Origin: Deltaproteobacteria bacterium
GTDB lineage: Bacteria > Desulfobacterota > Desulfobacteria > Desulfobacterales > UBA11574
Direction: 5' to 3'
DNA: 41,710 bases
Assembly (NCBI GenBank): GCA_019310125.1
Contig: JAFDEW010000001.1
Coordinates: 1 to 41,710 of the forward strand
This document shows, piece by piece, positions 1-32,842 of this stretch. Made by a program: the position numbers and the translations under genes. The notes beneath the pieces are model-generated. The model did not search any database and was not told the DNA's origin. It saw only the letters and a program-made list of their open reading frames with translations. Within the stretch, counting starts at the first letter, position 1; every line of letters starts with the position of its first letter.

Positions 1-1152
1 CGTATTATCCAATCCTTTGGAGACAAGAATCTGAAACAGGCGAGAATCGCCGTACTTAAATCCTGCTGCCGTACTGTTTAAAAAAAGACGCCATTGCCTC
101 ACAAACGTTTCATCAAACAATTTCCTAATTTTCTCTATATTTTCTTCAAAATTTTCCGCCCACTTTTCAAGAGTTTTGGCATAGTGCAGCCGCAAATTTT
201 CTACATCCAGGATGGAAAAACCGGTTTTTCCCATTTCTTTCACAATTTCTTGAAGCGTCGGAATATAGGCTCCGGGAAAGATATAATTAAACGTCCAGAG
301 ATCTACGGCAGACGGGGTATCTTTTCCAATGGTATGCAGCAGAGCCAGCCCCCCGCTTTTTAACAAATCCGAAACTTTTTGAATAAAATTCGGAATAAAT
401 TTTTTCCCTACGTGTTCCATCATGCCTATGGAAACTATTTTGTCAAATTTATCATCTAACTCTCTGTAATCTTTGTATAATATCTTAATTTGATTTTGAA
501 GCCCCAATTCTTCGATTTTACGATTGGCGTATTCGAACTGATTTTTCGATAGCGTAATTCCAACTCCGGTTATGCCATATTTTTGGGCTGCATAGATAAG
601 CATTCCGCCCCAGCCGCACCCAATGTCGAGAAGCAATTCATTGGGCTTAAGCAAAAGCTTGCGGGAAATATGTTCGTATTTGTTCAATTGTGCCTGTTCC
701 AGAGAATCGCCCGGCTTTGAAAAATACGCACAGGAGTAAGTCATGGTCTTATCAAGGTAGAGTTTATAAAATTCATCGCCCCTGTCGTAATGAAAGGAAA
801 TGTTTTTTGGGGCTCGTCGCAGGGTAGAACTGTTTAGCAGCGAAAAGATAAGCGTTCGAAATTTTTGCCAGAAAGATAAGCAATACTCGTCAAAATTAAT
901 GGCGAATCCCAGACGGAAAAGTTTTAGAAGATCCTTCTCTATTTCCAGATCTCCCTCCATATAGGCTTCTCCAAACCCTAAAAATCCTTTTCTGATGATT
1001 TTTTTGGTGCAACTTTCAGTTTTCAGACGTAATATTACCTCTGGAAAGCTTCCAAAACCTATGGTATCACCATCCCAGAATTCTATGGCAAAACATGCTG
1101 CTGGGTCGGCTTGATGCATCATTTGGGCGATATTTTTGATAACCTTTTTCAC
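1..1152 (-). CDS. cfa: Cyclopropane-fatty-acyl-phospholipid synthase family SAM-dependent methyltransferase; 3' end runs off the left edge of the window
   Basis: Absent from the ORF track because no stop codon lies inside the window. My translation of the minus strand from GTG at 1152 (GGAGG 5 nt upstream) stays open for 384 codons down to base 1. It reads VKKVIKNIAQMMHQ...FHYDRGDEFYKLYLDKTMTYSCAYF...LLDIGCGWGGMLIYAAQKYG (SAM motif I)...VSIGMMEHVGKK...LHTIGKD, the CFA-synthase pattern. ATG at 1122 is an alternative start. Confidence 0.8.
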   Translation of the reverse strand, partial: MKKVIKNIAQMMHQADPAACFAIEFWDGDTIGFGSFPEVILRLKTESCTKKIIRKGFLGFGEAYMEGDLEIEKDLLKLFRLGFAINFDEYCLSFWQKFRTLIFSLLNSSTLRRAPKNISFHYDRGDEFYKLYLDKTMTYSCAYFSKPGDSLEQAQLNKYEHISRKLLLKPNELLLDIGCGWGGMLIYAAQKYGITGVGITLSKNQFEYANRKIEELGLQNQIKILYKDYRELDDKFDKIVSIGMMEHVGKKFIPNFIQKVSDLLKSGGLALLHTIGKDTPSAVDLWTFNYIFPGAYIPTLQEIVKEMGKTGFSILDVENLRLHYAKTLEKWAENFEENIEKIRKLFDETFVRQWRLFLNSTAAGFKYGDSRLFQILVSKGLDNT

Positions 1153-1518: not shown

Positions 1519-1580
1519 TGTCCATAGAGGTAAGTCTTTATTTTGATGGTGGAAATCCCTATGAGGCGGGAATTTATCCC
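1519..1580 (-). promoter_or_regulatory. Copy A of the 62-63 nt composite intergenic motif (candidate multi-site operator)
   Basis: Aligns along its full length with 4396-4458, 17832-17893 and 20620-20681. Minus-strand reading: GGGATAAATTCCC-N8-GGGATTTCCACC..ATCAAAAT..CTATGGACA. It lies between the RR1 stop (1627) and the cfa start (1152). Confidence 0.5.
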
Positions 1581-1626: not shown

Positions 1627-2304
1627 TTATTCTTTCCACAGGTCCACGTCGATAATTCCTAACCTTGCGGCATATCGAACCAGCTCTATGGTGCTGTGGA
1701 GATTAAGCTTGCGTAAAACATTTGATCTGTGGTTCTCAACTGTTTTGGGGCTGATGAAAAGTTTTTCTGCAATCTGTTTGGTTGAAAGGCCTTGTGCGAG
1801 CAATGCCATGATTTCTTGCTCTCGGGAGGTCAGAGTTTCATAGGTGGCATCGGTAATTTTCGCCTCTTTCTCTGGGAATTGCATTAGCTTTTTTACCACC
1901 CTTTGGGAGACGGAACTGTCCATGAAATACTCGCCCTTCAAGACAGTATCTATCCCCTGTAAAAGCCTTTCAGAGGCTGATTCCTTGACCACATATCCTG
2001 TGGCTCCGGCCTGAAATGCCTTGACAATATAATCTACTTTGGAGTGCATGGTAATAATCATGATACGTGTTTTCGGCGATACATTCTTAAGTTCGTGAGT
2101 CAGTTGGATGCCGCTTTGATCCGGCAAAGACATATCCACCAGCGCCATATCAGGCTTGAGCTTTCGCGCCATTTGGAGTCCATCACGTCCGTTTCCAGCC
2201 TCCCCAACCACCTCAAACCTATCATCACGCCCAATGATCGCTTTGAGGCCTTCTCTGAAAAGGGGATGGTCATCTATTATTAGTATGGTTTTCTTATGAA
2301 TCAC
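1627..2304 (-). CDS. NarL/FixJ-family response regulator (receiver + LuxR-type HTH), paralog 1
   Basis: The track ORF 1627..2478 is over-extended into the upstream kinase. I place the start at GTG 2304, giving MIHKKTILIIDDHPLF. This matches the paralog start in both SD context (TATAAGGAT-N7-GTG versus TATAAGGAG-N7-ATG) and the 11-nt overlap with the kinase stop. Receiver residues DD..D(LVDMSLPD)..T..K are present, and the C-terminus carries the GerE/LuxR HTH (LTSREQEIMALLAQGLSTKQIAEKLFISPKTVENHRSN). Confidence 0.85.
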   Translation of the reverse strand: MIHKKTILIIDDHPLFREGLKAIIGRDDRFEVVGEAGNGRDGLQMARKLKPDMALVDMSLPDQSGIQLTHELKNVSPKTRIMIITMHSKVDYIVKAFQAGATGYVVKESASERLLQGIDTVLKGEYFMDSSVSQRVVKKLMQFPEKEAKITDATYETLTSREQEIMALLAQGLSTKQIAEKLFISPKTVENHRSNVLRKLNLHSTIELVRYAARLGIIDVDLWKE

Positions 2305-4119
2305 CCTTATTATCCTTATAAGGAAGCATAATAGAAATCTTTGTGCCCTGCATGGGTTTTGACTGAATTTCCATTTCACCTTGAAGCAATTTAGCCCTTT
2401 GCTCCATGCTCCGAATTCCCATTCGTTTCTCTTCTGATAGGGTTGCCAATCGTTTCTGAACATCAAACCCCTTACCATTATCTTCTATACGAAGAATAAT
2501 ATTAGGGAAAGCTGCAACCAGTCTGATGGTCACATGTTCAGCGTCAGCGTGCTTTTTGATGTTGGCGAGACCTTCCTGAATCAGGCGATACAGATTGATT
2601 TCGGTGTCAAAATCCAGCGTTAAATCTTTCATGCCCGCAGAATGGAAATCAACATTTATTCCATTATCTTCAGAAAAATCATGGCAATACTGAAAAATAG
2701 TCTGTATAAGTCCCATTTCATCGAGTCCTGAAGGTCGTAAATAATATGAGAGATCACGGATTGCTTTGATGATCTCCTGAAGCATTATTGACATTTGAGA
2801 CATTCTTTTCCTGATCTCGGGGGTTATATTTGTTTGATTATCAAAAAGCGTTTCACAGCCAATTTTTACCGCAGAAAGCTCTTGCGCCACGTTATCATGC
2901 AGGTCACGGGAAATCCTCTGACGCTCACTTTCCTGAGTTCTCATTAGCTCCTGGGTGAGGATATTAATATGTTCTTCGGCCCTCTTTTGGTCGGTGATAT
3001 TTCTGGCAATCTGGATAAAGCTTTCAATTTCACCCGCATCATTTTTCAGAGGCACGCAGTAAGTGTCCCAGTAACTTTCCCCTTCTATCCCCTTTACCTT
3101 GGGTTGATACATGACCGCTCGTTCGATTTTACCCGTCTCCCGAGCTATTACAGTTGGGCATACTTTACAGGGTGTATCTCGACCAACGAAAAGTTTATAA
3201 CAGGTATGGCCTACTAAATCTTCGGTAGACATATTAAGCGCCATGGCTGTTGTTTTATTTGCCCAAATGATTTTCATGTCCTTATCAATATAACGAATCC
3301 TGTCAATAGAGGCGTCAAGAATTGCCCGTTTCTGAGATTCGCTCTGACGGAGCGATACTTCCATCCGTTTTTTTTCGGTAATATCAGTAATAAATGCAAA
3401 GGAACCCTGTACCTCTCCAGATTCATTCCTGATTGTTGTGGCATTAAAATATGTTGGCAGGTCTTGACCCTTCTTTTTTTTCAGGGTAATTTCATAACTG
3501 CGATGGAGTGTGGTCGATATCTTTGAGGTCTGTTCAATAAAAACTTTTCGGTTCTCATCATCAACAAAGTCAAAAGGTGTTTTGCCAAGCATCTCATCTT
3601 GACTGTATCCAAGCATTTTGCAAAGAGCCGCGTTGACTTCGATAGTTTCGAGTTCAGAACTCTCAGTGACTCCTCAGCTTGCTTCCGTTCGACAATTCTT
3701 CCGGTTAGCCCGGCAATAGCATTGATCAAATTTCTTTCTTCTTTAAGGAATGGACCTTCATCAATTTCCGGATTTTCTTTCAGGTAATAAACTTCCAAAA
3801 CACCACTCTGTTCACCACGCACTTTAATGTCGGAGCTCTGTTTCCAAATTGTCTCCCGAAATTTTTTTGTTCTCAATTCTGTGCCATGTATTATGACTCG
3901 TGCACAAGTGATCTCCGGATATTGCCACGAGGGGGGAATAAGATCCATTATCCCCTGAAGAATCTCCTCCAACGAAATATCCTGCTGCTCAACAAGATTG
4001 GCAATACCATAAAGGCAGTTGAGTTCCTTAACCCGTTCTCCACTATCATGGGTTTTCTGCCTCAGGGCTTCCTGTTCAAGTTTTCGTTCAGTGATGTCTT
4101 GCCAGATGCGTTTGCTCAT
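2294..4119 (-). pseudogene. Sensor histidine kinase paralog 1 (GAF-like sensor module, PAS, PAS, HisKA_3, HATPase), split into two reading frames
   Basis: ORFs 3481..4119 and 2294..3616 are consecutive parts of one kinase in different frames. The upstream frame reads ...RKQAEESLRVLNS and then becomes nonsense. The downstream frame opens just after a TGA (3674-3676) and reads GVTESSELETIEVNAALCKMLGYSQDEMLGK, which is the middle of a PAS domain. The H-box RISRDLHDNVAQELS and the ATPase region (EDNGKGF, GIRSMEQRA) are intact. Confidence 0.6.
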
Positions 4120-4395: not shown

Positions 4396-4458
4396 AGTCT
4401 ATAGGATAAAGTTCTTATTTTTATAGGAAAAAATCCTAAAGATATAGGGGGTTATCCC
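4396..4458 (-). promoter_or_regulatory. Copy B of the 62-63 nt composite intergenic motif
   Basis: Minus-strand reading: GGGATAACCCCC-N9-AGGATTTTTTCC..ATAAAAAT..CTATAGACT. It lies about 277 nt upstream of the HK1 start. The stop codon of the DUF72 remnant (4452-4454) lies inside its GGGATAA box. Confidence 0.5.
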
Positions 4459-6772: not shown

Positions 6773-6808
6773 GAATCTTTTTTTGGGTTGTTTGGGTTAT
6801 GCTTGGTT

Positions 6809-8338: not shown

Positions 8339-8592
8339 GGTAAGTCCTAACCCGGACAAGCCGGAACCCAAGAGAATTTAAAATTAAATATCGACAATTT
8401 AAGGAAGTCGCTCCCGCCCGTCATTGTAAATCACAAGCGGGCAGGTCGCTCGATCATTTTGGTGTTGATAATAATTAAAATCCGGAAAAATTCCTTAGCC
8501 ATTTAACATTCAACTCAAATTCGTCACTCGACGACTCAACCAGTTTAAAATTTTCAATCATCAATCGTCAATCTTAAATTTTCAATCCATAG

Positions 8593-8848
8593 CCCGGATA
8601 TTTCACGAGTGCGAGGCGTTCATTTGCAAGGCATTCAAGGGCGCAGCCGTAGTGAACTACTGCAAGCCCTTGATAACGAAGCAAATGGGCGCCTCGCACT
8701 CGACCGAAGGGTGAAAAATTTTGAGAAATTGAACAAGAAAATCTTCGGTACAAACTGTCACCTCACAACTAGAGGCAAAATTGTAAATAACAAACTGTTC
8801 TTATTAATAATACAAAAACTTCTCGAAAATTTTCATGAGATGTTCGGG
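8593..8848 (+). repeat. MITE-like composite element M1 (degenerate copy) carrying hairpin E1
   Basis: The outer arms 8593-8607 (cccggatatttcacg) and 8834-8848 (catgagatgttcggg) pair at 11 Watson-Crick and 3 G-T positions out of 15. The layout parallels 35353-35561. It ends directly at the glgP stop codon (8849-8851). Confidence 0.45.
8607..8701 (+). repeat. 95-nt structured hairpin element E1 (candidate structured RNA or ssDNA element)
   Basis: Four stems: a perfect 12-bp basal stem gagtgcgaggcg/cgcctcgcactc, then catttgc/gcaaatg, tcaaggg/cccttga and gccgtag/ctactgc, closed by a tgaa loop. A second 95-nt copy at 35369-35463 has compensatory changes in the stems. Confidence 0.7.
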
Positions 8849-11395: not shown

Positions 11396-11509
11396 TTTTA
11401 TTTATCCTTTGTCATTAATTGTTGGTCATGAGTCACGTACTCAACGGGTGTAATTCACGGCTGTTGGTTTACGGCAGCCATTCATTCCTTATCACCGGGA
11501 TCTGAAGAT

Positions 11510-11596
11510 CAGGTTTCAGGTGTCAGGTGTCTGGAGAGAGGGACGTAAGAGCGGAAACCCAAAACCTGAACACTGACACCTGACACCTGAAACCTG
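11510..11596. repeat. Hairpin F1: perfect 22-bp arms built from caggtgt heptads, 43-nt loop
   Basis: 11510-11531 (caggtttcaggtgtcaggtgtc) is the exact reverse complement of 11575-11596. A related hairpin lies at 31666-31734. F1 sits between the debranching-enzyme stop and the glgP start. Confidence 0.85.
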
Positions 11597-11667
11597 GATA
11601 ATTTAAGCTAAATCACCAACAGTTTTGATTTACAACCTCATTCAACTACTCAACTATTATCAAATAG

Positions 11668-14600
11668 TCAATTCAAAGCTTGGAGCAGCTTCCATACTCT
11701 TACAAATTCGCTTGCTCCCCAGGCCTGTGCATCACAGCCGCGGTGCCTGTGGGGAAAATCTCCGTCCATGATTTCCGGCAGATGGCTTACGCACCCCTGG
11801 GATACGAGACGGGCGCTGCTTGCCAGCCATGAGAACGCCGTGTTTTTTCCTTCAGTGCCGTAGGCTTTTACCCATGCTTCACAATAACTGGAGAACAGCC
11901 ATGTCCAGGCAGTGCCGTTATGGTATGCAGGTTTGCGTTTTAACTCTTCCTCTCCCGCATATTGCCCCTGGTAAGGATGATGGGGATTGTTAATGGTTGT
12001 TCCATTATGATAAATTGCAATTGGCCGGCTCACCGGTCGGTCCGCAAGGCTGCGAATGGCTCCCGGGACCAGCAGTTCCTCACATGCCGCCACGATCTTA
12101 CGGCAAATCGCAGGGTCGGGGACAGCGCCAAGCGTTACCGCAAAAAGCTGGTTCGGCCTCAGGGCATCGTCAGGATCCGCCTGTGCGGCCGGTTTTCCCG
12201 AATCCGTATGGAGACAGTCGGACAGGTAACCTGATTTTTCGAGCCAAAAGAGGTTAGAAATTGACGTTTGAACCCGGGAAGCTCTATCGGTCCAGTCGCC
12301 GGCATCCCCGGAGGGGTCAATTCGTGATAAAAAGGATAATGCGGCAAACCAGAGCGCCTGAATTTCAATGGGATACCCTTGCCGGGGGGTGCCTGCAGGG
12401 TGATTGGTGTCCATCCAAGTAAAATGGGTCGGACTGAAAATAAGACACGATTTCGGGTCCATATGGATACCGTTGGGCATGCCCTTCTCATAAGCATTGG
12501 CTATGGAAAAAAGAATATGACGAATGGTTCGATCCCCACACGTTGAATCCAGAAATTCTTCATTTCCTTGGATTCGGACCAGATCGGCACATGCGACAAA
12601 AAACCATAGCGGCGCGTCAGAGGTGTTCCGGTTTCCGGCATCTTTTCCTCGAATCATATTCGGAATCGTTCCGTTGCTTTCAAACTGTCCGAACTGTTTC
12701 AGGATAGAACGCGCCTCGTCCATTTTTCCCGCTGCAATCAACCCCCTGACAAAAATCAAGGCGTCCCTTCCCCAATCCAGAAACCAAGGATATCCCGCAA
12801 TGACCGTATTCAAATCGTTCCTTTTTACTACATAATCATCCAGCGCTGTTTTTAATGCTTCATAGGGTTTGCAAAATTTGCTTTTTTCAACAAGTTCCGG
12901 TTCCATATCACGGACCCGGGGTTTTTGATTCGGAACATGGGAATTTTGGGCACCCGTAATAAAGGCGCTCAGCGTTACGGATTCTCCTCCTTTCAGGAAT
13001 GAAGAAAAATAGCCCGGACTGAACAGATCCGAATCCGGATCAAGACCCCGCTCAGCCTCTATCGACCGGTGTACCATGTATTGCCATTCCGGCTCCCATA
13101 CAAAAGACCCATCGGAAATCTTCAAACTAAGCCGGTGTTCCTGTTCCGGCACAAATGTGAAGCCGTCCGGATCCGATCTCACAGCCCCGGGCCAGAAATG
13201 CTCCGGTCCCTGAAATGCCTTAGTGGTCTCGTGAAAATTGCGGCTTTCAATATCCGGACGCAGGATGAGCCGGACCGGCTCATGATCTGCCAGCATTCCC
13301 TGCCGGCTTTTTGCTGAATCGCGGATAAAAACCATACGCATGGAATTTTTTCCGGGAACCATCTCCACACATATGGTCAGAACGACATGTTCCCCCTGGC
13401 CTGTGGGCACCTGATATCGCCACATGCCTCGGCCACGGGACTGGAAACAAAAAGAATCAAAGCAATCATCGCAGATATCCTGTGAATAGCCCTGATACAC
13501 CAGCCATGCCCGGCATCGTGTAAACATTACCCAGCGATCTTCAGGGATCTCAGGGTTCATATTTGCTGCCAGAAGGGCATCATACCTGCTGGAAAGTTCC
13601 CCCCAGGAAACCGCCGCCCGAAGCATGCCTCCGCGACCGTTGGTGCCGAGCAGAAGAGGGGAACGGCTTGACAGATCCTGCCGGTAATAGATCCGGTTCA
13701 CCCTTGCATCCTCCGGCCGGGAAAGGAAAAGAAGGGGCGCGTCAACATGTTGAGTATCACCTGGCGTATAAACCGACAACTTCAGGGTATACGAGCGATG
13801 AGTCTTGGGCGAAGGAAGGGGTGAAAAAAGCGTAAAATACGATCCGTCCATACACTGCAGACTTTCTTCATGGTACAGGCACCGGTTTTCCTCCATGATC
13901 CTGGCGCGAAAAGCCCTATCGGCGCGAACCATTAAAAAATGATCCGGAGGCACCATTACTTCTCGCTTTTTATCACGGGGCCATTGCCAGGTTATCACCC
14001 GAGGTTCATTGCTGAACGGGTTAAGACTGCGGCAGTACTCCAGGGGATTTTCCGCCAGTTTTCGCGCCGCCGTATCCGGTTCAAATTTGCCCGGATCCCG
14101 GGCACCGTTATAAAAATGCAGCACGTCCATAGCTTTGGCACGAAGACACTGCCTTTTAATTCGCTCCGGATATAATGCGGTTTTAGATTCAACCTCGCCA
14201 ACAAGATCAATATCCTGCCGGTCAGCGCTAAGACAGAAAATCCGACCGGAATCAAGAAGACAGGAATGCTTTCCGTCAGACTCGGCAATAGCCACATTCT
14301 CGCCTGAGATAAGATCCACAAACGCAGATGAATTTATGCCTGTCGCCTGAGGATTCCAGGATGCTAACGTCTTATGCCGATCATCCAAATTCGCCACAAT
14401 AAGAAGCTTTTTCCCTGACGGCAGATGGTGACGCAGCATGACAATACAATTTCCATCGCCCTGCTGGACCATTTTCAGTTCCGTTCGGTCATGAAATGCC
14501 GGATGTGTTTTGAGCAGAACGTTGAGGCGACGGATATGTTTCACCTGGTTGGTTGAAGCCCCCCAGTTCAGTGAAGTTGCTCCATGGACGCTGATCTTTT

Positions 14601-15972
14601 CCGTTGCATACCATTCCACGCCGTTGGCAAAGCCAAAGCCCCCTTGATAACTGCAAAGCGCGCACAGTGCGGTCCGCATCCGAGCAAAGACTTTAGATTG
14701 AGCGGCCAGACGAAGGTTATCGTGGGTTTCAGCGAAATGTACCGTTATTCCGTCACTTACAGAGATCTCATTGGCTCCCGGAAGATAGGTTTCGATCTGG
14801 CTGCGGTCATAGTTTTGAAAAAGCTCGGAATAGGACCAGTTGAAATTGGCTTTGTTCAAGATATCCCGGGTTGCAGAAATTTTTCCTCCCAGCCCTTCCA
14901 GAAGAAAAATTGTATCAGGATACTGATCCCTGACAGCGGCAACAATATACTTCCAGGCAGGAACCGGTATCATATATCCCGCATCGCACCGGAATCCGTC
15001 CACCCCCCGTTGGCACCATGTAATAAAGACATCGGCCATAAATTGCCACAAGTCTTTTTGGGTGTAGTCGAGACTCGTCAGGTCTGCCCAGACCACGCCC
15101 CAGGCGCCCGGCATTTCGATCTGGCCGTCCGGATTCCGGACAAGCCATTGAGGATGGGTTTCATGAAGACCGGCGGCCCAGCCCGTATGGTTGATGGCGA
15201 TGTCAATAAAAACCATGGCATGACGTTCATGGATTGCATCTATCAGCTCTATGAACTGCTCAAGAGGAGTTGCCTTAGGGTCAAATTCGGCCAAAGCCGG
15301 ATCCACGGCGGTAAAACTGAGTGCTGCATACGGACTTCCAAACCGTCCCATGCGAGCATAGGTAGTGGGGATGGGATGTATCGGGAGCAGCTGAATTATT
15401 CGGCACCCAAGCTCGCCAATAATGAAATCCAGTTCTCCGATCAAATCACGAAAGGTTCCTGACGGCGGGATGACCGTATATCCATTTTTATCAAGAGCCC
15501 GGATCGAATCTTCATCTGTCCCGGAAAAGAACTTACCGTTTTTGTTTGGACCGAACTGCCGGACAAATGCATTATAAATGATGTTTGAACAGCATGTGTG
15601 TGCCGGTTCCACGTTGATGGCGACATTGGGACCCTCCGGCCACACCGGGATGGTCTCCTTTTCACTCAAAAAGAAACATTTGGCTTCAAAATGCCCGACT
15701 TCACAAAAAGGGAGGGTAATCATAAAATTTCGCTCGTCAACACGGCTCATGGGAATGTCAAACCAGTCCCGACCGAGGGGCGGCTTATCGTTATCTACTT
15801 TCCTGATGATTTCCTGCCTGGTAGTTTGGGCATGGCCGATGTTCGTACGAAGCCATGCATTTCCTTTTCCGGGACGTGAAAGGGAGAGATTAAATGTCCG
15901 GGTATCGCCTCTAAATATAAGAATGCGGGTTCCCGGCGCGGGATCCTGGATGACCCAATTTGAATTATCCAT
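11668..15972 (-). CDS. Eukaryote-style glycogen debranching enzyme: N-terminal GH13 (glucanotransferase-like) half fused to a C-terminal amylo-alpha-1,6-glucosidase (GDE_C) half
   Basis: 1434 aa. The GH13 regions are VFIDIAINHTG, VDGFRCDAGYMIP, FLLEGLGG and FAETHDN. The C-terminal half has YPWFLDWGRDALIFVRGL, TSDAPLWFF, TPRQGYPIEIQALW, RPNQLFAV and AYHNGTAWTW, which are typical of amylo-1,6-glucosidase domains. Confidence 0.8.
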   Translation of the reverse strand: MDNSNWVIQDPAPGTRILIFRGDTRTFNLSLSRPGKGNAWLRTNIGHAQTTRQEIIRKVDNDKPPLGRDWFDIPMSRVDERNFMITLPFCEVGHFEAKCFFLSEKETIPVWPEGPNVAINVEPAHTCCSNIIYNAFVRQFGPNKNGKFFSGTDEDSIRALDKNGYTVIPPSGTFRDLIGELDFIIGELGCRIIQLLPIHPIPTTYARMGRFGSPYAALSFTAVDPALAEFDPKATPLEQFIELIDAIHERHAMVFIDIAINHTGWAAGLHETHPQWLVRNPDGQIEMPGAWGVVWADLTSLDYTQKDLWQFMADVFITWCQRGVDGFRCDAGYMIPVPAWKYIVAAVRDQYPDTIFLLEGLGGKISATRDILNKANFNWSYSELFQNYDRSQIETYLPGANEISVSDGITVHFAETHDNLRLAAQSKVFARMRTALCALCSYQGGFGFANGVEWYATEKISVHGATSLNWGASTNQVKHIRRLNVLLKTHPAFHDRTELKMVQQGDGNCIVMLRHHLPSGKKLLIVANLDDRHKTLASWNPQATGINSSAFVDLISGENVAIAESDGKHSCLLDSGRIFCLSADRQDIDLVGEVESKTALYPERIKRQCLRAKAMDVLHFYNGARDPGKFEPDTAARKLAENPLEYCRSLNPFSNEPRVITWQWPRDKKREVMVPPDHFLMVRADRAFRARIMEENRCLYHEESLQCMDGSYFTLFSPLPSPKTHRSYTLKLSVYTPGDTQHVDAPLLFLSRPEDARVNRIYYRQDLSSRSPLLLGTNGRGGMLRAAVSWGELSSRYDALLAANMNPEIPEDRWVMFTRCRAWLVYQGYSQDICDDCFDSFCFQSRGRGMWRYQVPTGQGEHVVLTICVEMVPGKNSMRMVFIRDSAKSRQGMLADHEPVRLILRPDIESRNFHETTKAFQGPEHFWPGAVRSDPDGFTFVPEQEHRLSLKISDGSFVWEPEWQYMVHRSIEAERGLDPDSDLFSPGYFSSFLKGGESVTLSAFITGAQNSHVPNQKPRVRDMEPELVEKSKFCKPYEALKTALDDYVVKRNDLNTVIAGYPWFLDWGRDALIFVRGLIAAGKMDEARSILKQFGQFESNGTIPNMIRGKDAGNRNTSDAPLWFFVACADLVRIQGNEEFLDSTCGDRTIRHILFSIANAYEKGMPNGIHMDPKSCLIFSPTHFTWMDTNHPAGTPRQGYPIEIQALWFAALSFLSRIDPSGDAGDWTDRASRVQTSISNLFWLEKSGYLSDCLHTDSGKPAAQADPDDALRPNQLFAVTLGAVPDPAICRKIVAACEELLVPGAIRSLADRPVSRPIAIYHNGTTINNPHHPYQGQYAGEEELKRKPAYHNGTAWTWLFSSYCEAWVKAYGTEGKNTAFSWLASSARLVSQGCVSHLPEIMDGDFPHRHRGCDAQAWGASEFVRVWKLLQALN

Positions 15973-16087
15973 CGGGCGTCACTGTTTCTTTTATAAAACA
16001 ATACGATTTTGATTCAGAAAACTTAATATAAAATAACGAAACTTGTGTGTCAAAGGAAAAGGCATCATTATTGCGGGGAGGTCGGGG

Positions 16088-16489
16088 CTATATAGGAGAG
16101 GGAAATTCTGAATCTTCCTGAACGACGGGCAACTGATTTAATAAATTGGAAATCTTTTCTCTGAGTTCATGGGCGGCCGTATGGCTTTTAACCAGATACC
16201 CGTCTGCTTGAGAAAGATGGGGATCAAACAGGTGTGTGTTGTGAGCGGTAACGATAAGTACCGGAAGATTTGGATGTTGTATTTTAATGCCCTGCAAAAC
16301 ATCCCATACGAGAAATCCATGTTTTAAGTATTGGTTCAGGAGCACGATATGGGGGTTGAACGATAAAATGTTTTCCATCACGGACTCGACATCATCTGTT
16401 GTTGAAACAGTGAATCCTTCACCGGCCAGACTTTCTCTACATAATTCCTTTACCCAGGCCTGGTCGTCTATAATAAGTATATTTGCCAT
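16088..16489 (-). CDS. Stand-alone CheY-like receiver domain protein with Asn in place of the phospho-acceptor Asp
   Basis: The start ATG 16489 (MANILIIDDQ) has GGAG 6 nt upstream. The acidic pair DD, the T of LIVTAH and the K of YLVKS are present. The position aligned with CheY D57 reads HIVLLNQYL, with the Asn codon at 16334-16336. Confidence 0.7.
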   Translation of the reverse strand: MANILIIDDQAWVKELCRESLAGEGFTVSTTDDVESVMENILSFNPHIVLLNQYLKHGFLVWDVLQGIKIQHPNLPVLIVTAHNTHLFDPHLSQADGYLVKSHTAAHELREKISNLLNQLPVVQEDSEFPSPI

Positions 16490-16725
16490 AAAATACTCCA
16501 ACTCTATCCGGTTAAGACACTCCGATCCGTTGACTTGGCTGAGCCACCGACAATGGCATAAAGGGGGGTAAATGAAAATAAGTATCCGCTTTCGGCGCGA
16601 TTTATCCGTAAAAATAGTACCATACCTGAAACGGTAATATTTTCAAAATCTTAACGTGTTATGATATATACTTTTTCTTTCTTTGAAGAAATCCATACTT
16701 GCTGCCAGACAAATTTCAGGTTGTC

Positions 16726-17019
16726 TTAAGCTTCATAAAATACCGGCTCTCCCAGTTCTTTGAACGAAATACTATTGAAAATATGATGTCCGTCATAGTC
16801 GAGGACCCGCAAATCGTCGGTCTGACGCAAATCACTCATGATTGTTTTAAATTGCAATCCATATTTTTCTTTTACTTTTTCTTCAGAAATTTCATAAGCA
16901 ATGTACTTTTTTATCCCTTTTACAGCGAGCTTCTCAATTAGCTTTGAATCATTTAAAGATTCATAAGTAGTTAAAAGAAGAATGGGGCCTGTGCCTGTGA
17001 AAAAGATTCCTGCCTTCAT
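16726..17019 (-). CDS. Hypothetical protein (97 aa)
   Basis: Strong SD (AAGGAGG 6 nt upstream of the ATG). It starts 18 nt after the preceding ORF, consistent with an operon. I recognise no family. Confidence 0.6.
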   Translation of the reverse strand: MKAGIFFTGTGPILLLTTYESLNDSKLIEKLAVKGIKKYIAYEISEEKVKEKYGLQFKTIMSDLRQTDDLRVLDYDGHHIFNSISFKELGEPVFYEA

Positions 17020-17037
17020 AATATACCTCCTTTCTAT

Positions 17038-17418
17038 CTATGCTTCGTCTTTTCTCAAAATAGGTTGCTCTTCCAGGCAGAAGGAACGCCACTTGCAGTC
17101 GAGCTGATCGCAATCCACAATTCCTTTTTGGAAACAGTCCGGATTACCTTCAGCGCGTTGAATACTTCTAATCAGGATCGTAATATCAAGGAAATTCTTT
17201 TTATTAACATCCGGTCCCGACCTGGAGGATGCTGCTGTGGTTATCTTTTCGTCCCTCCTCAGATTTCCAGTGTTGCTCGAACACTTTTGATTTTTTATGA
17301 ATGGCATAAATTCGTTAATGTTATGTCTCTGAATTTCGATCCACGGCGGAAAATCAAGGGTTTTTAAAACAAAGAACGCCTTTAGCTCAATAGTATAGGA
17401 ATTTCCTTTTTTGGACAC
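17038..17418 (-). CDS. Hypothetical protein with a C-terminal Cys-x7-Cys-x4-Cys-x5-Cys cluster (start uncertain)
   Basis: The C-terminus reads GNPDCFQKGIVDCDQLDCKWRSFCLEE. There is no SD before GTG 17418 or before the internal ATG (MPFIKNQ), so the 5' boundary is unsure. Confidence 0.4.
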   Translation of the reverse strand: MSKKGNSYTIELKAFFVLKTLDFPPWIEIQRHNINEFMPFIKNQKCSSNTGNLRRDEKITTAASSRSGPDVNKKNFLDITILIRSIQRAEGNPDCFQKGIVDCDQLDCKWRSFCLEEQPILRKDEA

Positions 17419-17529: not shown

Positions 17530-17730
17530 CTATAACGAGAGAGAACTTTCTGAAATCGACGGCGGTATAGTATAACGGTATTCTTCGGTATAATCTATTC
17601 CGCTTCCAACGTTCCATTTTTCAGTAGACACATGAATATCCTGTATCGCTTTCAATAACTTGCAGTTTTTGGCGCAATCTTCCTTAGGCAGATTCTTTCT
17701 GGGACAATTTTTACAGGGAGAAGAAATCAT
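17530..17730 (-). CDS. Small Cys-rich protein (66 aa; C-x2-C-x9-C-x3-C near the N-terminus)
   Basis: GGAGGA lies 4 nt upstream of the ATG. The protein begins MISSPCKNCPRKNLPKEDCAKNCKLL. Motif copy C lies about 100 nt upstream. Confidence 0.6.
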   Translation of the reverse strand: MISSPCKNCPRKNLPKEDCAKNCKLLKAIQDIHVSTEKWNVGSGIDYTEEYRYTIPPSISESSLSL

Positions 17731-17831
17731 ATGTCCTCCTCTATCTTAAGGTATCCACAATATCAGACTCTATCAAAGGTATTCATAACATCAGCATTTT
17801 CTTAATTTTATTATCAGATAGAAATTAGTTT

Positions 17832-17893
17832 TGTCTATAGAGAGAAGTGCTCATTTTAATAGGCAAAATTCCTGGGGAGTGGGAACCTATCCC
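17832..17893 (-). promoter_or_regulatory. Copy C of the 62-63 nt composite intergenic motif
   Basis: Minus-strand reading: GGGATAGGTTCCC-N7-AGGAATTTTGCC..ATTAAAAT..CTATAGACA. It lies about 102 nt upstream of the 66-aa ORF start. Confidence 0.5.
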
Positions 17894-17906: not shown

Positions 17907-18059
17907 GGCATAAGCGCTAACTTATTTTTACGCCGGAAGGACTGTGGAAGGTTTACTTAAAAAAAAGAACGTCCAACATCGAACGTCCAACATCGAATGT
18001 TGAATGGAAAAAGATGAAGAAACAGAAATAGCTGTTGAATGTTCGGTATTGGATGTTTG
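17907..18059. repeat. Element G1: conserved ~60-nt module plus an imperfect hairpin with arms made of gaacgtc/caacatc words; T8 run on the minus strand
   Basis: 17907-18006 aligns with 32619-32711 (ggcataagcgctaa.ttattt..cgccggaaggac.gtggaaggtttact.aaaaaaa..gaacgtccaacatcgaa.gttgaatg). The right arm 18036-18059 pairs with the left arm. The element starts directly after the RR2 stop codon, so it may terminate the HK2-RR2 transcript. Confidence 0.6.
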
Positions 18060-18060
18060 T

Positions 18061-18738
18061 TTATTCTTTCCAGAGGTCAACGTCAATCAGGCCGAGCTTT
18101 GCAGCATAGCGGATCAATTCAATGGTATTGTGGAGACCGAGCTTGTTCATAATGTTGGAACGGTGGTTTTCAACGGTCTTGGGGCTGATAAAAAGCTTTT
18201 CAGCAACTTTTTTGCTGGAAAACCCTTCCGCCAATAGGCGCATTACTTCCTGCTCCCGAGGCGTCAACGTATCATAATCGGAATCTGTAATTTTTGCCTC
18301 TTTTAAAGGAGATTTCATAAGATTTTCAACCACCGCATGGGAAACCGAGCTGTCGAGAAAATAATCGCCTCTTGCAACAGATTCAAGCCCCTGCAAAAGC
18401 CTTTCAGAGGCAGATTCCTTGACCACATATCCGGTTGCTCCAGCCTGAAATGCTTCGGCAATATAATCAATTTTAGAATGCATGCTGACAATTAAAATGC
18501 GTGTTGTCGACAAAAGAGTTCGAATTTCCCTAGTCAATTGAATACCGCTTCGATCCGGCAGGGATATGTCCACTATGATCACATCCGGTTTGAGTTTTTT
18601 TGTCAGTTGAAGCCCCTCTCTCCCATTCCCGGCTTCACCAACCACCTCAAAACGAGAATCGCGCTCTATAATTGCCTTAAGCCCTTCCCTGAAAAGAGGG
18701 TGATCATCAATAATCAATATGCTCTTTTTATCGGACAT
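18061..18738 (-). CDS. NarL/FixJ-family response regulator, paralog 2
   Basis: The start ATG 18738 (MSDKKSILIIDDHPLF) has AAGGAG 7 nt upstream and overlaps the HK2 stop by 11 nt. It is about 73% identical to RR1 by my manual alignment (59 mismatches over about 222 positions). Confidence 0.9.
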   Translation of the reverse strand: MSDKKSILIIDDHPLFREGLKAIIERDSRFEVVGEAGNGREGLQLTKKLKPDVIIVDISLPDRSGIQLTREIRTLLSTTRILIVSMHSKIDYIAEAFQAGATGYVVKESASERLLQGLESVARGDYFLDSSVSHAVVENLMKSPLKEAKITDSDYDTLTPREQEVMRLLAEGFSSKKVAEKLFISPKTVENHRSNIMNKLGLHNTIELIRYAAKLGLIDVDLWKE

Positions 18739-19864
18739 GATTTTGCTCCTTATAGGGAACTTCAATACATATTTTTGTGCCTTCCGTCGGACGGGATTGA
18801 ATCTTCATTTTTCCGTTTAAAAGGCCGACTCTTTCCTCCATGCTTCGAAGTCCCAAGCACTTCTCCTTGACAGCCGATACCATCCGGTCATTGATATCAA
18901 ACCCTTTGCCGTCATCTTCAATGCGCAGGATGATATAGGGAAAAGAGGCAACTATTTTGAGGGTTACACTGACGGCATCCGCATGCTTTTTAGTATTCCA
19001 GAGCGCCTCCTGGATAATGCGGTACAAATTGATTTCCGTGTCAAAAGGAAGTGATAGATCATCCATGCCGGCAGCGAAAAAATTAATTTTTATCCGATTT
19101 TTCTCGGCAAATTCTTCACAATATTGATAAACTGTTCGGACCAGCCCCAATTGATCCAGGCCGGGAGGGTGTAAATCATAAGCGATATCCCTGACAGCTA
19201 CTATTGATCTTTTGAGTATTTTTGACAATTCCAAAAGTTTTTGTCTTATATTAACGGATTCGCAAGGCCTGCCGTCAAATAGTGTTTCCCAGCCGATTCT
19301 CAGCAGGGAAAGGTCTTGTGCCACATTGTCGTGTAGATACCGGGCAATTCGCTGGCGCTCATTTTCCTGGACCTTCATCAGTTGTTGAGTGAGGGCGCGA
19401 ACATGTTCTTCCGCCTGTTTTCGCTTGGTGATGTTCACTATATTTCCCATTATAGCAGTCTTTCCTCTATATTCTATGGCAGCTGCAATCATTTCGCACC
19501 AAATGGTTCCCCCATCTTTTTTAAGCCTTTGAACCTCATACTGAAAAGGAACAGATTCACCCTTCAACCTTTTGGACGCTCTTTCTGCCATAATCTCCCT
19601 GTCATCCGGGTGAATCAGCGCCTTATATTCCATTCCCAGTAATTCTTCTGTTGTATACCCATGTAATTTGGCGAATCTATCATTAACAAATACAAATCTT
19701 CCATCCTGGTGAATGAAAATACCGGTAAGGGAGCTCGTTGTAAGTATTTTATATTTTTCCTCACTCTTCCTCAGCGCTTCCTCTACCTGCTTGCATCCGA
19801 TGGCTTCTTTTTCTAACTTTTTTACCCTTTGTTCCAATTCCTCATAGGTTGGCTTTTTGGGCAT
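18728..19864 (-). CDS. PAS-domain sensor histidine kinase (PAS, HisKA_3, HATPase), paralog 2, intact
   Basis: 378 aa. Contains a complete PAS domain (SEEKYKILTTSSLTGIFIHQDGRFVFVNDRFAKLHGYTTEELLG...), the H-box RIARYLHDNVAQDLS, and the ATPase motifs EDDGKGF and GLRSMEERV. Confidence 0.85.
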   Translation of the reverse strand: MPKKPTYEELEQRVKKLEKEAIGCKQVEEALRKSEEKYKILTTSSLTGIFIHQDGRFVFVNDRFAKLHGYTTEELLGMEYKALIHPDDREIMAERASKRLKGESVPFQYEVQRLKKDGGTIWCEMIAAAIEYRGKTAIMGNIVNITKRKQAEEHVRALTQQLMKVQENERQRIARYLHDNVAQDLSLLRIGWETLFDGRPCESVNIRQKLLELSKILKRSIVAVRDIAYDLHPPGLDQLGLVRTVYQYCEEFAEKNRIKINFFAAGMDDLSLPFDTEINLYRIIQEALWNTKKHADAVSVTLKIVASFPYIILRIEDDGKGFDINDRMVSAVKEKCLGLRSMEERVGLLNGKMKIQSRPTEGTKICIEVPYKEQNHVR

Positions 19865-20133: not shown

Positions 20134-20346
20134 TTAAGAGCCTTCGTATTTAAAAGAAATGGATACTCTGGCACGATAGGATACGATTTTCCCATCATTC
20201 ATTGTCATATCCAGTTTTGTGATTTCCGCAACTCTTAAATCGCGCAGACTTTTAGTTGCTCTTGCGACTGCATTTTCCGCAGCTTTCTCCCAGGAAGTTT
20301 CACTTGTTCCCACCAATTCTATGATTTTGTAAACACTGCCACTCAT
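20134..20346 (-). CDS. Dodecin-family flavin-binding protein
   Basis: 70 aa: MSGSVYKIIELVGTSETSWEKAAENAVARATKSLRDLRVAEITKLDMTMNDGKIVSYRARVSISFKYE. This matches the dodecin pattern as I know it. Confidence 0.8.
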   Translation of the reverse strand: MSGSVYKIIELVGTSETSWEKAAENAVARATKSLRDLRVAEITKLDMTMNDGKIVSYRARVSISFKYEGS

Positions 20347-20619
20347 GTTTGCCTCCTTCCATTAAATTTTATAAATGTTAATTGCCGAATACCCTATTCG
20401 GATAACACGGAAAAACGAAGCATAAGTTAAAAATTTAATGTGCATGGTTTTAAATGTTAAGCGGAATTGTTGACCTAAAACATATTGAGATGAGCTCAAA
20501 GGCAAGGCAATTAAAAGAGTGGTTCTTCGTTATTGAAGAACCACCCAACACAAGCGCAAAAAATGTAGCCTCCCGCGCTTTTTATTTTTATCAATTTTGA
20601 TAACTTTTTCTGAAAAATA

Positions 20620-20681
20620 TGTCCATAAGCAAAAAGGTTCATTTTAATAGGGGAAAATCCCGATCTCCGGGAAGTTTTCCC
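20620..20681 (-). promoter_or_regulatory. Copy D of the 62-63 nt composite intergenic motif
   Basis: Minus-strand reading: GGGAAAACTTCCC-N7-GGGATTTTCCCC..ATTAAAAT..CTTATGGACA. It lies about 274 nt upstream of the dodecin start. Confidence 0.5.
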
Positions 20682-32618: not shown

Positions 32619-32842
32619 GGCATAAGCGCTAAGTTATTTTCTGCGCCGGAAGGACCGTGGAAGGTTTACTGAAAAAAATGAACATCGAACGTCCAACATC
32701 GAACGTTGAATGAGAAAAAGGAAACCAAAAGATGGTTAAAACTTATTCAGAAGGTACCATTAATTCGATGTTGGAATAATTTGAGGAGCGGAGCGACATC
32801 ATTATTCGACGTTCAACGTTCAATGTTCGATGTTGGACGTTC
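32619..32842. repeat. Element G2: conserved ~60-nt module plus a hairpin with an 18-bp perfect stem made of gaacgtc/caacatc words
   Basis: 32687-32704 (gaacgtccaacatcgaac) is the exact reverse complement of 32825-32842. Further partial arm copies at 32766-32777 and 32812-32821 allow alternative pairings. The 5' module aligns with G1. Confidence 0.7.

What the first reader, a model, noticed from the sequence alone, without database searches (positions are those of the whole stretch)
17832..17893. Four same-orientation copies of a 62-63 nt composite intergenic motif
Seen directly: 1519-1580, 4396-4458, 17832-17893 and 20620-20681 align end to end, with one 1-nt length difference. Read on the minus strand:
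- A: GGGATAAATTCCCGCCTCATAGGGATTTCCACCATCAAAATAAAGACTTACCTCTATGGACA
- B: GGGATAACCCCCTATATCTTTAGGATTTTTTCCTATAAAAATAAGAACTTTATCCTATAGACT
- C: GGGATAGGTTCCCACTCCCCAGGAATTTTGCCTATTAAAATGAGCACTTCTCTCTATAGACA
- D: GGGAAAACTTCCCGGAGATCGGGATTTTCCCCTATTAAAATGAACCTTTTTGCTTATGGACA

The shared architecture has three parts. There are two GGGA-N5/6-YCC boxes whose starts are 20-21 bp apart, about two helical turns. There is an ATTTT-N7-AAAAT-type inverted repeat. There is a terminal CTATRGAC box.

All four copies are intergenic and point the same way. Each lies about 100-370 nt upstream of a minus-strand start: cfa, HK1, the 66-aa Cys-rich ORF and dodecin. I could not fit a sigma70 or sigma54 consensus into the motif.

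Inference: this is a multi-site transcription-factor target, most economically the operator of the neighbouring NarL-type regulators.
Basis: partly seen in the sequence, partly recalled or inferred. Interest (0 to 1): 0.65.

Follow-up and report, generated by a model that had tools for sequence, protein, structure and literature searches.

The report
Conserved response-regulator promoter cassette in Desulfobacterales
The four repeats are real copies of a 62-bp promoter-plus-operator cassette, conserved across sulfate-reducing Desulfobacterales, that most likely lets a pair of neighbouring NarL-type two-component regulators switch on themselves and a set of small stress and storage genes; it is a well-supported but ordinary kind of regulatory site.

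Summary
Four same-strand copies align end to end, and there is no fifth copy in the window.

The motif is not a generic repeat. A pattern scan of 185,579 species genomes returned 118 stretches. 103 were from Desulfobacterota, and about 100 of those carry the whole motif. The 15 hits in other phyla lack it.

There are 96 unique copies. They are intergenic and co-oriented with a downstream gene.
- 56 of 102 sit about 26 nt after the stop of a homologue of the window's NarL-type regulators, or upstream of such a kinase-regulator operon.
- The rest precede dodecin, small Cys-rich proteins, PilZ, CBM48, Csp, DksA, WrbA, cfa or GlgA.

The anatomy, from upstream to downstream:
- two G/C inverted repeats (GGGAnAAnTCCC and GGrnTTTnCC) 20-21 bp apart;
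- a CCyATnAAAATrA A-tract;
- T(G/A)GACA, which is −35-like, with a weak −10 lying 16-17 nt further on.

Best reading: an activator-dependent sigma-70 promoter, autoregulated by RR1 and RR2 and defining their regulon. The architecture resembles tandem DosR boxes, but neither the regulator nor the box spacing is DosR.

Binding and transcription starts were not tested. This is a new member of a known kind, of moderate interest.

The parts
17832..17893 (-). Copy C of the 62-bp cassette. It lies between the RR2 terminator and the 66-aa Cys-rich ORF. Sub-parts on the minus strand: box 1 GGGATAGGTTCCC 17893-17881; box 2 AGGAATTTTGCC 17873-17862; A-tract element TATTAAAATGA 17861-17851; -35-like TAGACA 17837-17832.
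   Evidence: the orthologous copies are conserved
17810..17815 (-). -10-like hexamer GATAAT, 16 nt after the -35-like TAGACA of copy C. The inferred transcription start is near 17803.
   Evidence: 10 of 12 matches. Across 91 copies, -10-like hexamers are enriched at this position. The start site is inferred, not mapped.
20620..20681 (-). Copy D, upstream of the dodecin-HK2-RR2 operon (the autoregulatory position). The -35-like TGGACA is at 20625-20620. A candidate -10, TATCAA, is at 20602-20597.
   Evidence: The -10 fails the strict scan.
4396..4458 (-). Copy B (63 nt, with a 1-nt insertion between the boxes), upstream of the HK1-RR1 operon. The -35-like TAGACT is at 4401-4396. A candidate -10, TAATAA, is at 4379-4374.
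   Evidence: Orthologous B-type copies occur in L082, L067 and L057. The -10 fails the strict scan.
1519..1580 (-). Copy A, after RR1 and upstream of cfa. The -35-like TGGACA is at 1524-1519. A candidate -10, TATGTT, ends at 1495 (spacer 18).
   Evidence: orthologous A-type copy at L082_2566
18061..18738 (-). RR2, a NarL/FixJ-type response regulator (receiver plus GerE HTH). It is the proposed binder of the boxes.
18728..19864 (-). HK2, a PAS plus HisKA_3 plus HATPase histidine kinase, partner of RR2
20134..20346 (-). Dodecin gene, the first gene of the D-driven operon
   Evidence: Dodecin is the first downstream gene for 15 of 96 copies.
17530..17730 (-). 66-aa Cys-rich ORF, the first gene driven by copy C. 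It belongs to a lineage-restricted hypothetical family.
16088..17418 (-). The rest of the C-driven cluster: a 126-aa Cys-rich protein (17038-17418), a 97-aa protein (16726-17019) and a single-domain receiver (16088-16501)
1627..2478 (-). RR1 ORF. The probable true start is near 2300. RR1 is a paralogue of RR2, 72% identical.
2294..4119 (-). HK1 (PAS-PAS-HisKA_3-HATPase). Here it is split into two overlapping ORFs, 3481-4119 and 2294-3616.
1..1152 (-). cfa (cyclopropane-fatty-acyl-phospholipid synthase-like), driven by copy A. It runs off the left end of the window.

Best explanation
Each copy is a complete activator-dependent sigma-70-type promoter cassette. I read it as follows, 5' to 3' on the minus strand, with positions that assume T(G/A)GACA is the -35 hexamer.

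- Box 1, GGGAnAAnTCCC, is centred near -85.
- Box 2, GGrnTTTnCC, is centred near -65. [quoted passage not shown]
- A rigid CCyATnAAAATrA element follows. Its A-tract is near -55 to -51. It is either an UP-element-like contact for the RNA polymerase alpha C-terminal domain or a bend.
- Next come a pyrimidine-rich 10-nt spacer and yTAT(G/A)GACA, the -35.
- A weak nATAAn -10 lies 16-17 nt further on.

Proposed mechanism (inferred):
1. Dimers of the phosphorylated NarL/FixJ-type regulators RR2 and RR1 bind the two inverted repeats cooperatively. These regulators are 72% identical and have the same recognition helix.
2. The bound dimers recruit RNA polymerase, in the manner of Class I activators.

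One copy sits in front of each kinase-regulator operon (copies D and B), giving positive autoregulation. One copy sits directly behind each operon (copies C and A), giving a first target. Further copies elsewhere in these genomes define a regulon of small stress, storage and signalling genes. The two PAS-kinases differ in their sensor domains (45% identity), so two signals probably converge on one promoter type.

What is shown:
- the conservation of the motif;
- its lineage restriction;
- its intergenic, co-oriented placement;
- its linkage to the regulator.

What is inferred:
- which protein binds which box;
- activation rather than repression;
- the transcription start.
For: 1. Conservation. 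There are 96 unique full-length copies plus about 30 with a degenerate box 1. They come from about 100 of the 103 Desulfobacterota stretches returned by a pattern scan that specified only the promoter-proximal third. Boxes 1 and 2 were therefore not selected for, yet they carry high information content. The 15 pattern hits in other phyla have no motif.

2. Orthologous C-type and D-type copies are kept while the flanks diverge.

3. Linkage to the regulator. 30 of 102 copies lie within 300 nt of the stop of an RR homologue, typically about 26 nt. 26 of 102 lie upstream of an HK-RR operon on the same strand.

4. Protein-anchored control. Homologues of the 66-aa gene have the motif when it follows the RR (L123, L126). 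Those copies deviate from my search pattern, so they are independent of it. Homologues in other contexts do not have the motif (L124, L125, L127).

5. Promoter features.
- Only 7 of 96 copies fall inside a stop-to-stop ORF of 150 codons or more, against 66% of random positions.
- 77 of 96 have a conserved same-strand gene starting within 600 nt, and most of the rest have a plausible one (cfa, WrbA, GlgA-like).
- Many copies have an upstream neighbour called on the opposite strand. L001 is an example, where the upstream PHA-synthase subunit gene is divergent.
- -10-like hexamers occur at spacer 16-18 in 52 of 91 copies, against 21-24 of 91 at control offsets.

6. The regulator's recognition helix (SPKTVENHR) is nearly invariant in 39 homologues of 54-100% identity. 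RR1 and RR2 are 72% identical, while the kinases are only 45% identical.

7. Precedent. The NarL-family regulator DosR recognises GGGACT half-sites and needs two boxes 21 bp apart in helical phase, at -42.5 and -63.5 (PMC3177182). It contacts sigma region 4 and the alpha subunit (PMC13486717).
Against: - No binding, phosphorylation or expression data exist. The assignment of RR1 and RR2 to the boxes rests on genomic linkage.
- The -10 is weak. The strict single-sequence promoter scan accepts only copies A and C, and finds no more promoter-like sites than shuffles give.
- The very strong conservation of CTAT(G/A)GACA and of the A-tract element exceeds what many activator-dependent promoters show. 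It could mean a dedicated sigma factor or a third protein.
- Part of that conservation is imposed by my search pattern. Copies outside the pattern still keep it.
- Box 1 has a spacer of either 4 or 5 nt, which is unusual for a rigid dimer site.
- The DNA-binding domain is closest to EsrB/SsrB, whose site is AT-rich (ACmTTA heptamers). Homology therefore does not predict a GGGA specificity.
- The metatranscriptome evidence is inconclusive. Depth over the motifs is 0, but the contigs come from relatives, and some run on upstream as sequence unlike the window.
Confidence: 0.68

Rival explanations
1. The cassette is the promoter of a dedicated alternative sigma factor (a general-stress sigma). CTAT(G/A)GACA would be its -35 and the A-tract an UP element. 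The two-component operons would simply be members of that sigma regulon, and the G/C boxes would bind something else or modulate activity.
For: - The 9-nt terminal box and the A-tract are extremely conserved.
- The gene set resembles a stationary-phase or stress regulon: cfa, WrbA, glycogen genes, Csp, DksA, dodecin.
Against: - An alternative sigma would normally impose a strongly conserved -10. Here the -10 is the weakest part.
- No sigma gene is linked to the motif in the loci inspected, whereas the NarL-type regulator is linked in 55% of copies.
- The hexamer differs from TTGACA at one position only.
- The protein-anchored control ties the motif to the regulator's presence.
Confidence: 0.1
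2. The boxes are bound by a different, unlinked transcription factor, either a global regulator or a repressor. The adjacent regulators would be only frequent targets of it.
For: - 46 of 102 copies have no regulator within the sequence held.
- Homology of the DNA-binding domain does not predict GGGA recognition.
Against: - Autoregulatory placement both upstream and immediately downstream of the operon, in two paralogous systems and across an order, is the classic signature of the cognate regulator.
- Many of the 'unlinked' copies come from 8-kb blocks or short contigs.
- The motif disappears from cys66 homologues that are not next to the regulator.
Confidence: 0.12
3. The motif acts at the RNA level. 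The GGGA...TCCC units would form small hairpins in read-through transcripts from the regulator gene, serving as a processing site, an attenuator or a protein-binding RNA.
For: - In most genomes the motif starts only about 26 nt after the regulator's stop, with no intervening terminator.
- Some metatranscriptome contigs extend upstream of the 5' UTR.
Against: - No Rfam family matches.
- There is no covariation. Of 84 variant positions in box-1 pairs, 30 stay pairable, mostly as G-T or through misregister. There is a single GTGA/TCAC case. The 'loop' AA is conserved.
- B-type and D-type copies lie in intergenic regions whose upstream gene is divergent or unrelated, so no transcript would enter them.
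- RNA contig depth over copies C and D is 0 in all seven RNA runs laid.
Confidence: 0.04
4. The motif is a generic interspersed repeat (REP- or MITE-like) with no regulatory role.
For: There are several copies per genome, and at least 7 in the closest relative (loci L027, L082, L112).
Against: - Positions are orthologously conserved across genomes.
- Each site type keeps its own variant of the sequence.
- Copies are consistently co-oriented with downstream genes and depleted inside ORFs.
- The flanks are not conserved, and copy number is low.
Confidence: 0.02

Closest known systems
DosR/DevR 'Dev box' promoters of Mycobacterium tuberculosis (NarL-family regulator; PMC3177182, PMC13486717). OsdR of Streptomyces is a related case (PMC5069765).
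   Same: - The regulator is of the NarL family.
- Half-sites have a GGGA core in inverted repeat.
- At least two boxes are needed, 21 bp apart on the same helical face.
- One box is stronger ('primary') and the other tolerates degeneracy.
- The regulator's own operon is autoregulated.
- The regulon is rich in small stress and dormancy proteins and in storage metabolism.
   Different: - The regulator is not a DosR orthologue. NarL, VraR and DevR score equally over the full length, and the DNA-binding domain is closest to EsrB/SsrB.
- The spacing is GGGA-N4/5-TCCC rather than GGGACT-WW-AGTCCC (N6).
- The proximal box is centred near -65, not -42.5, and is separated from the -35 by a rigid A-tract element.
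- The kinases have PAS sensor domains, not GAF.
SsrA-SsrB of Salmonella (PMC2837388)
   Same: - It has the closest solved DNA-binding domain (SsrB E 4e-12, EsrB E 6e-14; the recognition helices are TVETHR and TVENHR).
- It recognises a palindrome.
- Two copies of the palindrome lie upstream of its own operon.
   Different: The SsrB heptamer is AT-rich (ACmTTA, 7-4-7 arrangement) and flexible. Here the boxes are G/C-cored, and the whole 62-bp layout is rigid.
NarL/NarP 7-2-7 heptamer sites and Class I activator-dependent promoters with UP-element-like A-tracts (E. coli)
   Same: - An HTH dimer of the same family binds inverted repeats upstream of a sigma-70 promoter.
- The sites are in helical phase with RNA polymerase.
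- An A-tract lies at -50 to -60, where the alpha C-terminal domain binds.
   Different: The half-site sequence (TACYYMT for NarL) is not present. The roles of the A-tract and of the alpha C-terminal domain are inferred, not tested.

Membership tests
Operator/promoter of a NarL/FixJ-type two-component response regulator | Inverted-repeat half-sites suited to an HTH dimer, conserved as sequence | tested here: met
   Box 1 is GGGAnAAnTCCC and box 2 is GGrnTTTnCC. Both have high information content in 91 unique copies, although they were not part of the search pattern.
Operator/promoter of a NarL/FixJ-type two-component response regulator | Fixed position and helical phase relative to core promoter elements, upstream of a co-oriented gene | tested here: met
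   - The boxes are 20-21 bp apart.
- The spacing from box 2 to the -35-like hexamer appears rigid, but most copies were found with a fixed-spacing search pattern; copies outside the pattern keep it too.
- -10-like hexamers are enriched at spacer 16-18: 52 of 91 against 21-24 of 91 at control offsets.
- 77 of 96 copies have a conserved same-strand gene within 600 nt.
Operator/promoter of a NarL/FixJ-type two-component response regulator | Genomic co-occurrence with the cognate regulator, including autoregulatory sites | tested here: met
   56 of 102 copies directly flank an RR/HK homologue. In the protein-anchored control, 2 of 2 homologues next to the RR have the motif and 0 of 3 without it do.
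Operator/promoter of a NarL/FixJ-type two-component response regulator | Direct, phosphorylation-dependent binding and regulator-dependent transcription | not testable with these tools
   This needs EMSA, DAP-seq or footprinting, plus expression data.
DosR/DevR regulon (Dev box) | 20-bp palindrome TTSGGGACTWWAGTCCCSAA with GGGACT half-sites | tested here: not met
   The GGGA/TCCC core is shared, but the spacer is 4-5 nt, not 6, and the CT after GGGA is not conserved (PMC3177182).
DosR/DevR regulon (Dev box) | Tandem boxes in helical phase | tested here: met
   The box centres are about 20-21 bp apart, as against -42.5 and -63.5 in tgs1.
DosR/DevR regulon (Dev box) | The regulator is orthologous to DosR | tested here: not met
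   Among solved structures the scores are NarL 1.4e-35, VraR 4e-33 and DevR 7e-33. The best NCBIfam match is MctR, below its cut-off at 182 bits against 300.
Sigma-54 promoter | Invariant GG at -24 and GC at -12, 10 nt apart | tested here: not met
   The only candidate GG, in TATGGACA, is AG in a large share of copies, including copies B and C of the window. No conserved GC follows.
Interspersed repeat (REP/MITE) | Many copies placed without regard to genes or orientation | tested here: not met
   Copies are depleted inside ORFs: 7 of 96 against 66% of random positions. They are co-oriented with downstream genes, and their positions are orthologous.
Structured cis-regulatory RNA | A match to a curated family, or covariation supporting helices | tested here: not met
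   Rfam gives no match at gathering score, and box 1 shows no compensatory pattern.
UP element (alpha C-terminal domain site) | An A/T-rich tract between -40 and -60 that contacts the alpha C-terminal domain | tested here: inconclusive
   AAAAT lies at about -55 to -51, given the inferred -35. Contact with the alpha subunit was not testable.

The most novel reading that the evidence does not exclude
The cassette marks an order-wide, DosR-like stress, dormancy and storage regulon of marine-sediment Desulfobacterales.

- It would be run by paralogous PAS-kinase/NarL-type systems that converge on one rigid 62-bp promoter module.
- That module is reused in front of at least a dozen families of mostly tiny proteins. 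Several are uncharacterised: the cys66 family, the p126-like Cys-rich family and a 93-aa family. Others are dodecin, PilZ, CBM48, Csp, DksA, WrbA, cfa and glycogen genes.
- The rigidity of the whole module, rather than of the operator alone, would imply a co-evolved activator-alpha-sigma geometry or a third bound factor.
Probability: 0.3. Interest if true: 0.5.

Novelty: new member of a known kind. Interest (0 to 1): 0.4.

Why it matters
Desulfobacterales carry out a large share of carbon oxidation in marine sediments, yet their regulatory networks are almost unknown and most members are uncultured.

- A sequence-defined promoter/operator that is conserved across the order gives a ready-made way to read a regulon directly from metagenome-assembled genomes.
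- It nominates a set of small, unannotated proteins, together with dodecin and with glycogen and membrane-lipid functions, as one co-regulated response.
- It offers a simple, testable handle: one 62-bp fragment and two regulators.

I found no description of it in the searchable literature. In kind, it is a conventional two-component regulator site.

Tried and rejected
- **Rfam.** The whole window gave no family at gathering score. An E-value search of the dodecin leader gave only chance-level hits.
- **Strict single-sequence promoter scans.** They accept the terminal box as a -35 in copies A and C only, and find no more promoter-like sites than shuffles give. The promoter claim therefore rests on position-specific enrichment across 91 copies, not on these scans.
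- **Metatranscriptome contigs**. Depth over the motifs is zero and the downstream genes are covered. But the contigs are from related strains, have no direction, and some continue upstream as sequence unlike the window. I treat this evidence as inconclusive for the transcription start.
- **Predicting the binding site from homology.** The closest DNA-binding domain is SsrB/EsrB, which binds AT-rich heptamers. This gives no support for, or against, GGGA recognition.
- **Hairpin or RNA reading of the boxes.** No covariation was found.
- **Naive ORF-based orientation statistics**. These were contaminated by spurious short ORFs. I replaced them with homology-clustered downstream genes.
- **Literature searches** for a described regulon or motif in Desulfobacteraceae found nothing.
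- **NCBIfam and Pfam** gave no family for the 66-aa, 126-aa, 97-aa and 93-aa target proteins.

Full report
**Observation**

There is one 1-nt indel, in copy B, and 35 invariant columns. The upstream flanks do not align.

An HMM built from the four copies finds only those four in the 41.7-kb window. Their E-values are 1e-13 to 1e-17, and the next hit has E 0.25. A degenerate box pattern gives 5 matches against 1.25 expected by shuffling.

All four copies are intergenic. They lie 102-367 nt upstream of minus-strand starts.

**Gene context**

Pfam annotation gives this minus-strand layout:

- copy D, then dodecin, HK2 (PAS, HisKA_3, HATPase) and RR2 (receiver plus GerE/LuxR HTH), then a terminator;
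- copy C, then a 66-aa Cys-rich ORF, a 126-aa ORF, a 97-aa ORF and a single-domain receiver;
- a glycogen cluster: debranching enzyme, phosphorylase, synthase and branching enzyme;
- copy B, then HK1 and RR1;
- copy A, then cfa.

RR1 and RR2 are 72% identical. The kinases are only 45% identical and differ in their sensor domains. Each kinase-regulator operon therefore has one copy in front of it and one directly behind it.

The organism is an uncultured member of the Desulfobacterales/Desulfobacteraceae from sediment.

**Anatomy**

I anchored 91 unique copies on the terminal box and computed information content. The conserved block runs from 56 nt upstream of the T of T(G/A)GACA to the end of that hexamer. 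Its parts are:

- GGGAnAAnTCCC (box 1);
- a variable 8-9 nt;
- GGrnTTTnCC (box 2);
- CCyATnAAAATrA;
- a pyrimidine-rich 10 nt;
- yTAT(G/A)GACA.

Downstream there is a weak nATAAn signal at a spacer of 16-17 nt.

T(G/A)GACA differs from the sigma-70 -35 consensus at one position. The strict scan pairs it with a -10 in copy C (TAGACA-16-GATAAT, 10 of 12 matches) and in copy A (9 of 12), but not in copies B and D. Across the 91 copies, a -10-like hexamer occurs at spacer 16-18 in 52, against 21-24 at control offsets.

If the hexamer is the -35, box 2 is centred near -65 and box 1 near -85. They are then two helical turns apart. The A-tract lies at about -55 to -51.

A sigma-54 reading fails. The only candidate GG is AG in many copies, including copies B and C of the window.

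**Distribution**

I scanned one genome for each of 185,579 species with a pattern that specified only the promoter-proximal third (CCNATNAAAATRA-N10-YTATRGAC).

- 103 stretches are from Desulfobacterales, Desulfatiglandales or MAGs carrying the same genes. About 100 of these show the motif with nhmmer.
- 73 of those loci have full-length copies. A further 27 have a divergent or missing box 1.
- 15 stretches are from unrelated phyla (Flavobacterium, Cetobacterium, Bacillota, an archaeon and others). None of them has the motif. They serve as chance controls.

The boxes were not in the search pattern, so their conservation is independent evidence.

About ten copies keep only box 2 and the proximal part. 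Box 2, the A-tract and the -35 therefore form the core, and box 1 is accessory.

Several MAGs contribute three or four separate contigs. The closest relative has at least seven copies (loci L027, L082, L112).

**Orthology and selection**

I fetched loci through RR2 homologues of 83-84% identity. The D-type and C-type copies are retained at the same positions, while the upstream flanks are unalignable. Each site type keeps its own sequence variant across genomes. The four window copies are thus old, separately maintained sites rather than recent duplicates.

**Placement**

- Only 7 of 96 unique copies lie within a stop-to-stop ORF of 150 codons or more, against 66% of random positions in the same loci.
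- I clustered the downstream same-strand ORFs by homology. The first conserved downstream genes are: the 66-aa Cys protein (15), dodecin (15), a p126-like Cys-rich protein (10), the kinase (8), an unknown 93-aa protein (7), a PilZ-domain protein (5), a CBM48 glycogen-binding protein (5), a cold-shock protein (3), an unknown 96-aa protein (3), a p97-like protein (2), DksA/TraR (2) and a receiver (2). Singletons and pairs include cfa, WrbA and a GlgA-like synthase.
- Many copies have an upstream neighbour called on the opposite strand. In L001, for example, the upstream PHA-synthase subunit gene is divergent. A read-through RNA role cannot explain those copies.

**Link to the regulators**

- Of 102 copies, 30 begin within 300 nt of the stop of an RR homologue, typically about 26 nt. 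Another 26 lie upstream of an HK-RR operon on the same strand.
- As a control free of my DNA pattern, I fetched five distant homologues (56-65% identity) of the 66-aa protein. The two that follow a NarL-type regulator (L123, L126) have the motif, and L123 has a second copy in front of its kinase. Their proximal parts deviate from my pattern (CCCACTAAAATGA and CCTAGTAAAATGA) but are otherwise conserved. The three in other contexts (L124, L125, L127) have no motif. The motif goes with the regulator, not with the target gene.
- The recognition helix (SPKTVENHR) is nearly invariant among 39 RR homologues spanning 54-100% identity.

**Comparison with known systems**

Over its full length RR2 is equally similar to NarL, VraR and DevR. 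Its DNA-binding domain is closest to EsrB/SsrB. NCBIfam places it in no named equivalog; the best match, MctR, is below its cut-off.

SsrB binds AT-rich heptamers (PMC2837388), so homology does not predict the site.

By architecture the nearest precedent is DosR/DevR. It has GGGACT half-sites and requires two boxes 21 bp apart in helical phase, at -42.5 and -63.5 (PMC3177182). It contacts sigma region 4 and the alpha subunit (PMC13486717).

The present motif shares the GGGA/TCCC core, the 21-bp phasing, the primary/secondary site logic and the autoregulation. It differs in three ways:

- the half-site spacing is N4-5, not N6;
- the position is two helical turns further upstream, with an A-tract in between;
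- the regulator is not orthologous to DosR.

It therefore works like tandem Dev boxes but is not a member of that family.

**RNA-level and repeat readings**

Rfam finds nothing.

Box 1 shows no compensatory pattern. Of 84 variant pair positions, 30 remain pairable, mostly as G-T or through misregister, and the central AA is conserved.

Metatranscriptome contigs give zero depth over copies C and D, with good depth over the downstream genes. These contigs come from related strains, and some continue upstream as sequence unlike the window. I count this as weak, non-decisive support.

The interspersed-repeat reading fails on orientation, ORF depletion and orthologous conservation.

**Verdict**

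The finding is real.

I put about 0.9 on its being a promoter region and about 0.7 on RR1 and RR2 being the binders. I put about 0.5 on the exact assignment of the boxes and on the Class I-type mechanism.

It is a new member of a known kind. Its value lies in defining, from sequence alone, an order-wide regulon of small stress and storage proteins in environmentally important but largely uncultured sulfate reducers.

Noticed in passing
window 20517-20592 (minus strand), between copy D and dodecin: There is a conserved leader of about 75 nt. It consists of a short stem with a conserved loop, GGGAGGCUACAUUU, followed by a 13-bp terminator-like hairpin and a U-tract (20546-20517).

The leader is present in 12 of 15 D-type loci, and two of its base pairs show compensatory changes. 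It has no Rfam family. It could be an attenuator or riboregulatory leader, or a small RNA driven by the cassette.
   Followed up: partly
window 17907-18006 and 32619-32712: The 170-nt stretch between the RR2 stop and copy C is absent from most relatives, where the motif starts about 26 nt after the stop. It contains a roughly 100-nt element with a second copy in the window (86% identity).

The element includes a tandem CGATGTTGGACGTT duplication that forms the RR2 terminator. In one metatranscriptome its RNA contig depth reaches 473. It may be a small mobile or repeated terminator element.
   Followed up: partly
window 2294-4119 (minus strand): HK1 is split into two overlapping ORFs in different frames. 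Compared with the intact 757-aa orthologue in L082, it lacks about 116 N-terminal residues and about 20 residues at the junction. It is either a decaying gene or an assembly error.
   Followed up: yes
window 4669-6772 (minus strand): The branching-enzyme gene glgB also appears split. An N-terminal CBM48 ORF (6140-6772) overlaps the catalytic ORF (4669-6285) by 146 nt. This is a second apparent frameshift in the window.
   Followed up: no
window 4669-16501: A glycogen cluster (debranching enzyme, phosphorylase, synthase, branching enzyme) lies directly downstream of the C-driven operon, 115 nt after the receiver gene.

In other genomes the cassette directly precedes CBM48 proteins and a GlgA-like synthase. 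In L001 a PHA synthase operon is divergent from the D-type copy. Together these suggest that carbon-storage metabolism belongs to the regulon.
   Followed up: partly
window 17530-17730 and homologues P0121-P0199: The 66-aa protein has a CxxC...CxxxC pattern. It belongs to a small family (79 clusters) found only in Thermodesulfobacteriota/Deltaproteobacteria. Every member that has a name is called 'hypothetical', and no Pfam or NCBIfam model matches.
   Followed up: partly
L082 (435, 2566, 5863, 6577), L112 (5366, 7925) and L027 (6374): The closest relative is the MAG CAZBOB; L082 and L112 come from the same 53-kb contig of it. It has two cassette copies that the window lacks or cannot show. 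One lies downstream of cfa, beyond the window's left end. The other lies 715 nt upstream of the B-type copy, in front of a 96-aa protein.
   Followed up: partly
L104 and L113 (Desulfoluna spongiiphila, D. limicola): These cultured Desulfoluna genomes carry a shortened form, consisting of a GGGGGGAAT-type box 2, the A-tract and the -35, without box 1. They could serve as laboratory models.
   Followed up: no
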